From assembly GCF_030013205.1 (NCBI RefSeq), contig NZ_CP122648.1: a DNA stretch of 64,000 bases, one strand, 5' to 3'. Of this stretch, positions 44,736 through 45,932 are shown piece by piece. Source of the stretch: Escherichia coli (GTDB lineage: Bacteria > Pseudomonadota > Gammaproteobacteria > Enterobacterales > Enterobacteriaceae). How positions within the stretch are numbered: position 1 is the first letter of the stretch; each line of letters starts with the position of its first letter. Both the position numbers and the translations under genes were made by a program. Below the pieces are notes generated by a model, which saw only the letters and a list, made by a program, of their open reading frames with translations, did no database searches and was not told the origin of the DNA.

Positions 44736-45932
44736 ATGAAAACCTGGATATTTATCTGTATGTCCATAGCAATGTTGCTATGGTTTTTAAGTACGCTAAA
44801 ACGTAAACCCAGTCAAAAGAAAGGCTGTATTGACGCCATTATACCTGCTTATAACGAAGGCCCGTGTCTGGCACAGTCACTGGATAATCTGCTGCGTAAT
44901 CCTTATTTTTGCCGGGTAATTTGCGTAAACGACGGCTCCACGGACAATACCGAAGCGGTCATGGCGGAAGTCAAACGCAAATGGGGCGACCGCTTTGTTG
45001 CCGTCACGCAAAAAAATACCGGTAAAGGTGGTGCGCTGATGAATGGCCTCAATTACGCCACCTGCGACCAGGTTTTTTTAAGTGATGCCGACACCTATGT
45101 TCCGCCCGATCAAGACGGAATGGGCTATATGCTTGCAGAAATAGAGCGCGGTGCTGATGCCGTAGGCGGCATTCCCTCTACTGCGTTGAAAGGCGCGGGT
45201 CTGTTACCGCACATCCGCGCGACCGTAAAGTTGCCGATGATTGTTATGAAGCGCACGCTACAGCAGCTCCTGGGCGGCGCACCGTTTATTATCAGCGGTG
45301 CCTGCGGGATGTTCCGTACTGATGTATTGCGTAAGTTCGGTTTCTCTGATCGTACTAAAGTCGAAGACCTTGATCTCACCTGGACATTGGTGGCAAACGG
45401 CTATCGTATTCGGCAGGCGAATCGCTGCATCGTATACCCACAGGAATGCAACAGCCCGCGTGAGGAATGGCGTCGCTGGCGGCGTTGGATTGTGGGCTAC
45501 GCGGTCTGTATGCGCCTGCATAAAAGGCTTTTATTTAGCCGCTTCGGTATCTTCAGTATATTTCCTATGCTGTTGGTTGTGCTTTATGGCGTTGGGATTT
45601 ATCTCACTACCTGGTTTAATGAATTCATCACCACCGGGCCGCATGGTGTGGTGTTGGCAATGTTTCCGCTTATCTGGGTCGGCGTAGTTTGTGTTATTGG
45701 TGCTTTTAGCGCCTGGTTTCATCGTTGCTGGTTGTTGGTGCCTTTAGCACCGCTTTCCGTTGTGTATGTATTATTAGCTTATGCCATCTGGATTATTTAT
45801 GGACTTATTGCCTTTTTTACTGGACGCGAACCTCAGCGCGACAAACCCACCCGCTATTCCGCACTGGTGGAAGCGTCAACCTCTTATTCCCAACCTTCTG
45901 TCACAGGAACTGAAAAACTTTCTGAAGCTTAA
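44736..45932 (+). CDS. yaiP: family 2 glycosyltransferase, membrane-anchored (YaiP)
   Basis: 398 aa with GT2 motifs (IIPAYNE, DxD-like LSDADTY) and C-terminal transmembrane segments. Confidence 0.85.
   Translation: MKTWIFICMSIAMLLWFLSTLKRKPSQKKGCIDAIIPAYNEGPCLAQSLDNLLRNPYFCRVICVNDGSTDNTEAVMAEVKRKWGDRFVAVTQKNTGKGGALMNGLNYATCDQVFLSDADTYVPPDQDGMGYMLAEIERGADAVGGIPSTALKGAGLLPHIRATVKLPMIVMKRTLQQLLGGAPFIISGACGMFRTDVLRKFGFSDRTKVEDLDLTWTLVANGYRIRQANRCIVYPQECNSPREEWRRWRRWIVGYAVCMRLHKRLLFSRFGIFSIFPMLLVVLYGVGIYLTTWFNEFITTGPHGVVLAMFPLIWVGVVCVIGAFSAWFHRCWLLVPLAPLSVVYVLLAYAIWIIYGLIAFFTGREPQRDKPTRYSALVEASTSYSQPSVTGTEKLSEA

What the first reader, a model, noticed from the sequence alone, without database searches (positions are those of the whole stretch)
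45781..45932. yaiP and yaiX reading frames overlap by ~150 bp
The longest yaiX ORF starts at an ATG 152 bp inside the 3' end of yaiP, in a different frame. Either the true yaiX start is a non-ATG codon close to the yaiP stop, or there is a genuine long overlap, which would imply translational coupling.
Basis: seen in the sequence. Interest (0 to 1): 0.2.

Follow-up and report, generated by a model that had tools for sequence, protein, structure and literature searches.

The report
Real long yaiP–yaiX gene overlap
Two neighbouring E. coli exopolysaccharide-type genes, yaiP and yaiX, almost certainly do share about 134 bases read in two different frames, because an old 14-base junction lost both its stop and its start codon; the database annotations that avoid the overlap cut off a conserved part of YaiX.

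Summary
yaiP (44736-45932) and the longest yaiX ORF (45781-46491) overlap by 152 nt, with yaiX in the +1 frame.

Comparative evidence supports a real long overlap, but probably 134 nt, starting at ATG 45799.

- A Trp-Trp motif (45865-45870) lies 68 nt before the yaiP stop. It is present in 69 of 69 YaiX homologues that cover it.
- From that motif to the yaiP stop, substitutions pile up on the yaiX wobble position. This shows yaiX is the selected frame there.
- Outside Enterobacteriaceae the junction is ATGTGGTGGNNTGA, a 14-nt overlap preceded by a GAGG Shine-Dalgarno. Enterobacteria lost that stop, and yaiP gained 3-25 codons. E. coli also lost that start (now CAC).
- An ATG 22 codons upstream of the Trp-Trp motif is present in 13 of 13 enteric loci. 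ATG 45781 is present only in Escherichia.
- The nine yaiP codons beneath the first nine yaiX codons (MDLLPFLLD) have the lowest synonymous diversity of 353 windows in yaiP (0.15 against 0.59).

RefSeq starts (CTG 45910, or GTG 45967 in B2 strains) are probably truncations. Coupling by termination-reinitiation is unlikely at 134 nt. No experimental start mapping was found. This is a new member of a known kind, of modest interest.

The parts
44736..45932 (+). yaiP, family-2 glycosyltransferase (PgaC/IcaA-like), 398 aa
   Evidence: ORF. Pfam PF00535, 98.6 bits. RefSeq annotates the same coordinates in the identical strain K_EC180.
45781..46491 (+).
   Evidence: ATG 45781 has no Shine-Dalgarno (+0.9 kcal/mol). 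It is present only in E. coli and E. whittamii. The underlying yaiP Tyr codon is TAT or TAC across lineages.
45799..46491 (+). yaiX as most probably translated (230 aa): a stand-alone left-handed beta-helix acetyltransferase
   Evidence: ATG 21-23 codons before the Trp-Trp motif in 13/13 enteric loci. A 230-aa form is the representative of a 1737-member protein cluster (P0001). Pfam Hexapep 64 bits. AF2 model pLDDT 86. Closest structure is the ST0452 C-terminal domain.
45799..45932 (+). Proposed dual-coding stretch (134 nt), yaiX in frame +1 of yaiP
45799..45825 (+). Segment 1: yaiX codons 1-9 (MDLLPFLLD) over yaiP codons for YGLIAFFTG at 45798-45824. Both frames are constrained.
   Evidence: yaiP synonymous diversity 0.15 against 0.59 gene-wide, the lowest of 353 nine-codon windows. 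Differences by yaiX codon position are 7/7/34. GGA is used in 9/9 lineages at both Gly codons. Non-enteric relatives vary at these sites.
45826..45864 (+). Segment 2: variable yaiX linker (ANLSATNPPAIPH) over the conserved yaiP motif REPxRDKPTRY. yaiP is the dominant frame.
   Evidence: Synonymous diversity 0.53. Differences 39/197/75, concentrated on the yaiP wobble position. AF2 pLDDT is below 50 for residues 1-12 and about 50 for 11-20.
45862..45864 (+). CAC (His), the codon at the position of the ancestral ATG/GTG start
   Evidence: Non-enteric loci have ATG or GTG immediately before TGGTGG. 49 of 69 homologues have exactly one residue before the Trp-Trp motif.
45865..45870 (+). Trp-Trp codons (TGGTGG), the conserved N-terminal motif of the YaiX family. 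Read as (L)VE in yaiP.
   Evidence: Trp-Trp in 69/69 homologues covering these columns. Alignments.
45873..45875 (+). GCG, the yaiP codon at the position of the ancestral TGA stop
   Evidence: Non-enteric junction ...GTG GTG GNN TGA. YaiP alignment.
45865..45932 (+). Segment 3: conserved yaiX N-terminal region over the lineage-specific yaiP tail (19 extra codons, 45873-45929) and the yaiP stop TAA (45930-45932). yaiX is the dominant frame.
   Evidence: Differences by yaiX codon position 219/234/411. Amino-acid identity 0.55 in the yaiX frame against 0.35 in the yaiP frame. The same holds in lineages with no nearby alternative start (24/24/41). The yaiP tail varies in length from 3 to 25 codons. 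AF2 pLDDT rises to 73-92 from residue 21.
45910..45912 (+). CTG used by RefSeq as the yaiX start (193 aa, WP_072146072.1); probably a truncated call
   Evidence: AGGA ends 2 nt before the CTG, which is too close. There is conserved, selected yaiX-frame sequence upstream.
45967..45969 (+). GTA here; GTG in B2-type strains, where RefSeq starts yaiX (174 aa)
46483..46495 (+). yaiX-yaiO junction: GGAG, then TAA (46489-46491), 1-nt spacer, then ATG 46493. This is a classic coupling layout, in contrast to yaiP-yaiX.
   Evidence: Sequence. Shine-Dalgarno pairing -7.4 kcal/mol.
44055..44726 (+). yaiS (PIG-L deacetylase), the first gene of the cluster
   Evidence: The same four-gene order is found in Salmonella, Enterobacter and Citrobacter.
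46493..47266 (+). yaiO (outer-membrane beta-barrel), the last gene of the cluster

Best explanation
yaiP and yaiX genuinely overlap out of frame. YaiX needs its conserved N-terminal region beginning at the Trp-Trp motif (45865), which lies 68 nt upstream of the yaiP stop.

In the ancestral arrangement, still seen in Pseudomonas, Acinetobacter, Sphingomonas and other Proteobacteria, the glycosyltransferase ended ...RY-x-x-V-V-x-stop. YaiX started at an ATG or GTG directly before TGGTGG. The junction read ATGTGGTGGNNTGA, a 14-nt overlap, with a GAGG Shine-Dalgarno built from the Thr-Arg-Tyr codons. This is a typical coupled junction.

In Enterobacteriaceae that stop was lost, so yaiP runs 3-25 codons further (19 in E. 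coli). In E. coli the ancestral start (now CAC) and its Shine-Dalgarno (AGG became CGC) were also lost.

Inferred steps:
- Translation of yaiX now starts at the ATG created by the yaiP codons TAT-GGA (45799). This adds a 22-residue N-terminal extension written over the end of YaiP's last membrane helix.
- Initiation there is independent (de novo 30S binding), on an unusually unstructured stretch kept open by ribosomes translating yaiP. It is not termination-reinitiation.

Within the 134 nt, constraint is partitioned. The first nine yaiX codons are constrained in both frames. The next 13 codons serve yaiP, with a free yaiX linker. The last 68 nt serve yaiX, with a free yaiP tail.
For: - Trp-Trp is present in 69/69 homologues that cover it, and 49 of them start one residue before it.
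- A 14-nt ancestral junction with a Shine-Dalgarno was found in the seven non-enteric proteobacterial loci (L011-L014, L017-L019).
- Loss of the stop and a variable yaiP tail in enterics are shown.
- From the Trp-Trp motif to the yaiP stop, differences by yaiX codon position are 219/234/411. Amino-acid identity is 0.55 in the yaiX frame against 0.35 in the yaiP frame. The pattern holds in lineages with no nearby alternative start.
- A yaiP-only control region shows the opposite phase pattern, 1240/3253/1796.
- An ATG 21-23 codons upstream of the Trp-Trp motif, with an open frame, occurs in 13/13 enteric loci. The per-lineage chance expectation is 0.21-0.77, and the product over nine lineages is about 1e-4 if they are independent.
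- yaiP synonymous diversity is 0.15 in 45798-45824 against 0.59 gene-wide, rank 1 of 353 windows.
- In that stretch, yaiP amino-acid changes (L/F/I/P) are silent or conservative in YaiX (D/D/E/D).
- There is no other canonical start until 46051.
- RNA around 45799 is less structured than shuffled sequence (z = +1.5).
- The overlap is present at 97.7% identity or more in about 4830 of 5426 complete E. coli genomes.
- A repaired yaiX in K-12 gives a clumping phenotype that also needs YaiP (EcoGene 3.0, PMC3531124).
Against: - No experimental start mapping was found.
- The Shine-Dalgarno before ATG 45799 is weak (GGA, -3.1 kcal/mol) and no better than 41% of positions in yaiP.
- The ATG and the open frame are partly by-products of the conserved YaiP sequence.
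- Several enteric lineages (Salmonella L021, Enterobacter L022 and L023, Superficieibacter L009) also keep an ATG 2-4 codons before the Trp-Trp motif. The distal ATG is therefore not the only option in those lineages.
- The first 20 residues are predicted disordered.
- RefSeq annotates shorter proteins.
- The lineages compared are related, so the statistics are not independent trials.
Confidence: 0.72

Rival explanations
1. The true yaiX start is a non-ATG codon near the yaiP stop (CTG 45910 as in RefSeq, or CTG 45922 or ATT 45949). The long ORF upstream is then an untranslated accident.
For: RefSeq/PGAP calls a 193-aa protein from CTG 45910 in the identical strain. An AGGA lies at 45904-45907. 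The beta-helix domain itself starts only at about residue 53 of the 236-aa ORF. Most annotated co-directional overlaps over 60 bp are start mispredictions (PMC2478687).
Against: The Trp-Trp motif and the following roughly 15 residues upstream of 45910 are conserved family-wide and show the yaiX-frame substitution pattern. They are modelled with pLDDT 73-92. AGGA is 2 nt from CTG 45910 and 14 nt from CTG 45922, both poor spacings. CTG is a weak start (general knowledge). RefSeq is inconsistent with itself, using CTG 45910, GTG 45967 and CTG 45820 in different records.
Confidence: 0.07
2. The start is ATG 45781, the reader's 152-nt overlap, giving a 236-aa protein.
For: It is the first ATG of the ORF. 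It is conserved within Escherichia.
Against: It is absent from Citrobacter, Salmonella, Enterobacter, Superficieibacter and Ignatzschineria loci. The yaiP Tyr codon that creates it alternates between TAT and TAC, with 20 of 36 pairs differing. It has no Shine-Dalgarno (+0.9 kcal/mol). Synonymous constraint begins at 45798, not upstream.
Confidence: 0.1
3. Initiation stays near the ancestral site through a non-canonical codon, for example ATT 45856. This codon aligns with the ATG of Salmonella and Enterobacter 'AMPWW'. The overlap would then be about 77 nt.
For: The ATT sits exactly where related enterics have ATG. Most of the family starts 1-4 residues before the Trp-Trp motif.
Against: There is no Shine-Dalgarno (+0.4 kcal/mol), because the ancestral AGG codon is CGC here. 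ATT starts are very inefficient (general knowledge). This reading does not explain the synonymous constraint on 45798-45824.
Confidence: 0.05
4. E. coli yaiX is decaying. Having lost its start and Shine-Dalgarno it is poorly translated or not translated, and the overlap has no function.
For: The ancestral start and Shine-Dalgarno are lost. K-12 carries an IS2 insertion in yaiX. Only a weak Shine-Dalgarno is present.
Against: yaiX is intact and nearly invariant in about 4450 genomes. There is purifying selection in the yaiX frame across genera that share the lost start. A repaired yaiX is functional in K-12 (PMC3531124).
Confidence: 0.04
5. A +1 ribosomal frameshift in the overlap, for example at the T6 run 45813-45818, makes a YaiP-YaiX fusion protein instead of, or alongside, free YaiX.
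For: yaiX is in the +1 frame. A conserved TTTTTT run lies within the most constrained stretch.
Against: The run is broken in Salmonella and Enterobacter PGRG2. None of the 120 listed homologues carries a glycosyltransferase domain. The conserved ATG and the Asp/Glu at codon 2 are unexplained by a fusion model.
Confidence: 0.02

Closest known systems
[quoted passage not shown] 2008 (PMC2478687)
   Same: It is a same-strand, out-of-frame overlap. It is conserved among enterobacterial genera, and its length is genus-specific.
   Different: yaiP-yaiX is two to three times longer: 134 nt proposed, and at least 68 nt even on the most conservative reading. Its ancestral short state and both codon losses can be read directly from outgroups.
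Overlap growth by start or stop codon displacement (model of Fonseca, Harris and Posada 2013, PMC3887535; Palleja category v, '5' and 3' extension')
   Same: The upstream gene was elongated at its 3' end after stop loss. The downstream gene was elongated at its 5' end after start loss.
   Different: Palleja et al. treated such cases as annotation or sequencing errors. Here both extensions are conserved across genera, and the 5' extension carries a signature of selection.
Short-overlap translational coupling by termination-reinitiation (ATGA/TGATG type; PMC6728339, PMC10666635)
   Same: The non-enteric relatives (ATGTGGTGGNNTGA with a Shine-Dalgarno) and the yaiX-yaiO junction in this window fit this layout.
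   Different: The E. coli yaiP-yaiX start lies 134 nt upstream of the stop. This is far beyond the roughly 20 nt at which coupling was shown to vanish.
C-terminal acetyltransferase domain of Sulfolobus tokodaii ST0452 (PDB 2ggo, 5z09, 5z0a)
   Same: It has the same left-handed beta-helix fold. Sequence E = 8e-23 over YaiX residues 62-219. Foldseek TM-score 0.69 at 33-35% identity.
   Different: YaiX lacks the N-terminal nucleotidyltransferase domain. Instead it has a short Trp-Trp-containing N-terminal region. It is encoded in a glycosyltransferase/deacetylase/outer-membrane-barrel operon.

Membership tests
Genuine co-directional long gene overlap (>60 nt) | Both reading frames are open and retained in orthologous loci of other genera | tested here: met
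   13/13 enteric loci keep the yaiX frame open from the conserved ATG, with yaiP ending downstream of the Trp-Trp motif.
Genuine co-directional long gene overlap (>60 nt) | Sequence evidence that both frames are under selection inside the overlap | tested here: met
   yaiP synonymous sites are suppressed at 45798-45824 (0.15 against 0.59, rank 1 of 353). A phase mosaic of 7/7/34, 39/197/75 and 173/157/299 runs along the overlap.
Genuine co-directional long gene overlap (>60 nt) | Experimentally mapped start of the downstream gene inside the upstream gene | not testable with these tools
   No initiation profiling or N-terminal data for yaiX were found.
Annotation artefact: 5' extension from a mispredicted start (Palleja category i) | The extension is absent or not conserved in orthologues, and conservation begins after the upstream stop | tested here: not met
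   Conservation begins at the Trp-Trp motif, 68 nt before the stop. The further 22-codon extension is shared by all enteric loci. It is, however, absent from non-enteric orthologues.
Translationally coupled pair (termination-reinitiation) | Stop of the upstream gene and start of the downstream gene within a few nucleotides (overlap of 1-4 nt, distance under about 20 nt) | tested here: not met
   Any start upstream of the Trp-Trp motif is at least 68 nt before the yaiP stop, and 134 nt for ATG 45799. Distance dependence is taken from PMC10666635. The layout is met in non-enteric relatives (14 nt) by sequence only.
Hexapeptide-repeat (left-handed beta-helix) acyltransferases | Hexapeptide repeats and the beta-helix fold | tested here: met
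   PF00132 scores 64.3 bits against a cut-off of 27. AF2 model pLDDT 86. Foldseek hits to ST0452, GlmU and LpxD.
Bifunctional sugar-1-phosphate nucleotidylyltransferase/acetyltransferase (TIGR03992 / GlmU type) | N-terminal nucleotidyltransferase domain plus C-terminal beta-helix, with a score above the family cut-off | tested here: not met
   The score is 130 bits against a cut-off of 292. Only profile positions 233-393 match. No nucleotidyltransferase domain is present.
Hexapeptide-repeat (left-handed beta-helix) acyltransferases | Acetyl-CoA-dependent transferase activity and trimeric assembly | not testable with these tools
   Only a monomer model was made, and there is no biochemical data on full-length YaiX.

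The most novel reading that the evidence does not exclude
The first nine codons of enteric yaiX (MDLLPFLLD, consensus M-[DE]-x4-L-[LP]-[DE]) may be a newly born, selected peptide module. It would have been overprinted on the codons of YaiP's last membrane helix, for example as a short motif docking the soluble acetyltransferase onto the YaiP synthase or the membrane. That would make this a datable case, arising at the base of Enterobacteriaceae, of de novo coding sequence gained by overprinting in a cellular genome. Constraint is visibly partitioned between the two frames.
Probability: 0.3. Interest if true: 0.55.

Novelty: new member of a known kind. Interest (0 to 1): 0.35.

Why it matters
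Long same-strand overlaps in bacterial genomes are usually dismissed as start-codon errors. A survey of 715 such cases found none to be real, and the longest accepted one was 56 bp (PMC2478687).

Here the outgroups show the short ancestral junction, the loss of both the stop and the start, and frame-specific selection inside the enlarged overlap. This makes it a clean and testable counter-example.

Practically, the RefSeq models for thousands of E. coli genomes (193 aa and 174 aa) probably lack 37-56 N-terminal residues, including the family's invariant Trp-Trp motif. That matters to anyone cloning or expressing yaiX. Recent work used a 71-aa K-12 fragment (PMC13058169). It also matters for studies of this uncharacterised four-gene exopolysaccharide-type cluster (yaiS-yaiP-yaiX-yaiO).

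Tried and rejected
- Shine-Dalgarno scoring of all candidate starts does not discriminate. ATG 45799 scores -3.1 kcal/mol, and 41% of positions in yaiP score as well. yaiP itself has only -1.9.
- The promoter and terminator scan of 45500-46200 found no promoter-like site, and one terminator-like hairpin at the chance level. An internal promoter or terminator therefore does not explain the constrained stretch.
- RNA folding of 45760-45860 shows no stable structure (z = +1.5). A conserved RNA element is therefore an unlikely cause of the synonymous constraint.
- Conservation of the open frame and the ATG alone was rejected as decisive. It is largely predicted by the YaiP protein sequence (0.21-0.77 per lineage).
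- An ungapped control for the phase test on downstream yaiX (1691/1791/2313) is blurred by codon indels between lineages and was not used. The yaiP-only control was used instead.
- Literature searches for yaiX and yaiP gave no start-site data. The yaiP search returned mostly unrelated papers.
- The idea that yaiX is a truncated GlmU-type bifunctional enzyme was rejected.

Full report
**What is there.** The window is E. coli. It is 100% identical over 45500-46600 to strain K_EC180. It carries a four-gene cluster on the + strand:
- yaiS, a PIG-L deacetylase, 44055-44726
- yaiP, a family-2 glycosyltransferase of PgaC type, 44736-45932
- yaiX, a hexapeptide-repeat acetyltransferase
- yaiO, an outer-membrane barrel, 46493-47266

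The longest yaiX ORF runs 45781-46491 in frame +1 of yaiP, so 152 nt are shared. In the yaiX frame the only ATG/GTG/TTG codons are at 45781, 45799 and 45808. The next is at 46051, which lies inside the catalytic domain. Near the yaiP stop there are only CTG and ATT codons.

**Public annotation is inconsistent.** RefSeq starts yaiX at CTG 45910 (193 aa) in the identical strain and in others. In a B2 strain it starts at a GTG at 45967, where GTA has become GTG (174 aa). For the IS2-split K-12 pseudogene it uses CTG 45820. A 230-aa form starting at ATG 45799 represents a cluster of 1737 sequences from metagenome gene calls.

**Where conservation starts.** I aligned homologues down to about 50% identity. 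All 69 sequences that cover the position have Trp-Trp at the equivalent of 45865-45870. Of these, 49 begin with a single Met just before it, and 13 enteric ones carry 21-22 residues before it. The motif lies 68 nt upstream of the yaiP stop.

**The ancestral junction.** One genome-collection scan gave 15 loci, and eight further loci came from exact-protein look-ups.
- In Pseudomonas viridiflava, Acinetobacter, Sphingomonas and four other proteobacterial genomes, the glycosyltransferase ends ...RDKPTRY-x-x-V-V-x-stop. yaiX starts with ATG or GTG directly before TGGTGG.
- The junction reads ATGTGGTGGNNTGA, a 14-nt overlap. It is preceded by GAGG made from the codons ACG-AGG-TAC.
- In all enteric loci the stop is gone and yaiP continues for 3-25 poorly conserved codons.
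- In E. coli the old start codon is CAC and the Arg codon is CGC, so both the start and its Shine-Dalgarno are lost.
- The enlarged overlap therefore arose by displacement of both a stop and a start. This route is described in general terms by Fonseca et al. (PMC3887535).

**Which frame is selected.**
- From the Trp-Trp motif to the yaiP stop, pairwise differences among nine enteric lineages fall 219/234/411 on yaiX codon positions 1/2/3. Amino-acid identity is 0.55 in the yaiX frame against 0.35 in the yaiP frame.
- The pattern holds for the part upstream of RefSeq's CTG, and in lineages that have no alternative start nearby (24/24/41).
- A yaiP-only control shows the reverse pattern, 1240/3253/1796.
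- This stretch is therefore translated as YaiX, and any start at or after 45910 removes selected sequence.

**Which start.**
- An in-frame ATG 21-23 codons before the Trp-Trp motif (45799 in the window) occurs in 13 of 13 enteric loci. ATG 45781 occurs only in E. coli and E. whittamii.
- The ATG and the open frame are partly forced by the conserved YaiP sequence: 0.21-0.77 per lineage by codon resampling, with a product of about 1e-4 over nine lineages. I therefore looked at yaiP synonymous sites.
- Gene-wide, 59% of identical-residue pairs use different codons. In the nine codons 45798-45824, exactly beneath yaiX codons 1-9 (MDLLPFLLD), the figure is 15%. This is the lowest of 353 windows.
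- The rare Gly codon GGA is fixed in 9 of 9 lineages at both Gly positions, where it supplies Asp or Glu in YaiX. Non-enteric relatives vary freely at these sites.
- The few differences in this stretch fall on yaiX wobble positions (7/7/34). They change YaiP (Leu/Phe/Ile/Pro) while leaving YaiX Asp or Glu.
- The 13 codons that follow show the opposite pattern (39/197/75; synonymous diversity 0.53). Here the conserved YaiP motif REPxRDKPTRY dominates and the YaiX linker drifts.
- Constraint lies downstream of the ATG rather than upstream. This fits coding better than a ribosome-binding signal.

**Supporting and neutral data.**
- The Shine-Dalgarno before 45799 is weak (GGA, -3.1 kcal/mol) and at background level.
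- The surrounding RNA is less structured than shuffled controls.
- No promoter-like site and no above-chance terminator are present.
- An AlphaFold2 model (pLDDT 86) is disordered for residues 1-20. It becomes confident from the Trp-Trp region onward, at 73 rising to 92.
- The fold matches the C-terminal acetyltransferase domain of ST0452. YaiX is not a bifunctional GlmU-type enzyme.
- The overlap is nearly invariant in about 4830 of 5426 complete E. coli genomes.
- EcoGene 3.0 reports that repairing the K-12 yaiX pseudogene produces vegetative clumping that also needs YaiP (PMC3531124). The native gene is therefore expressed and functional.

**Mechanism.**
- Shown: the overlap of at least 68 nt, its origin, and frame-partitioned selection.
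- Inferred: initiation at ATG 45799 by independent 30S binding on mRNA that yaiP-translating ribosomes keep unfolded.
- Termination-reinitiation is unlikely, because coupling falls away at about 20 nt (PMC10666635).
- By contrast, the yaiX-yaiO junction (GGAG, TAA, 1 nt, ATG) has the classic coupling layout.

**Comparison and novelty.** Palleja et al. found no real co-directional overlap above 60 bp, and cited holD-rimI (32-56 bp) as the longest real one (PMC2478687). By their length criterion, yaiP-yaiX would be filed as an error with both 5' and 3' extensions. The evidence here argues it is real within Enterobacteriaceae. The kind of event is known, and I found no description of this instance. 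The start is not experimentally mapped. I rate it a new member of a known kind, with interest 0.35.

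Noticed in passing
window 44055-44726 (yaiS); L001 1056-1712: The window has an intact 223-codon PIG-L deacetylase ORF. 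RefSeq nevertheless marks this locus in K_EC180 (100% identical over the yaiP-yaiX query 45500-46600; yaiS itself not compared) as a pseudogene 'missing C-terminus'. RefSeq also calls a 39-aa hypothetical protein on the opposite strand inside it (about 44592-44711). This is probably an annotation artefact.
   Followed up: partly
window 44055-44726 vs L003 61-723: YaiS of B2-type strain SaT040 is only 62% identical in protein to the window's YaiS. The adjacent yaiP-yaiX DNA is 96.6% identical. There are therefore two deeply divergent yaiS alleles with a sharp boundary at the yaiS-yaiP junction, which suggests allelic replacement by recombination.
   Followed up: partly
window about 46081; L004 3584-4915: In K-12-type genomes, IS2 interrupts yaiX just after the equivalent of 46081. 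The window strain has the uninterrupted gene. A 2026 paper (PMC13058169) studied a 71-aa K-12 fragment as 'YaiX'.
   Followed up: partly
L023 2501-3226 and 3141-3917 (Enterobacter sp. PGRG2): yaiX has a C-terminal extension of about 30 residues, and its annotation overlaps yaiO by 86 nt. This may be a second stop-loss overlap in the same operon.
   Followed up: no
L015, L016 (Kaiserbacteria, Paceibacterota MAGs): YaiX homologues with the same M/V-W-W N-terminus occur in Patescibacteria without an adjacent glycosyltransferase. In L016 the upstream gene ends with a C-terminal sequence resembling that of YaiS.
   Followed up: no
L006 and L008 (Citrobacter braakii ATCC 51113); plasmid hits: One Citrobacter genome carries two diverged copies of the whole cluster, 80% and 64% identical to E. 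coli YaiX. About 30 E. coli plasmid places match the region. An Ignatzschineria MAG also has an enteric-type copy. Together these suggest the cluster is mobile.
   Followed up: no
window 45813-45818: A TTTTTT run sits in the most constrained part of the overlap. In principle it is a slippery site between the two frames. It is broken in the Salmonella and Enterobacter PGRG2 loci, and there is no evidence of frameshifting.
   Followed up: partly
L003 3735-4073: In strain SaT040 an IS66-family transposase remnant is annotated downstream of yaiO, and no frmR or frmA is annotated within the 4.1-kb stretch fetched. In the window, frmR and frmA follow yaiO directly (47403 onward).
   Followed up: no
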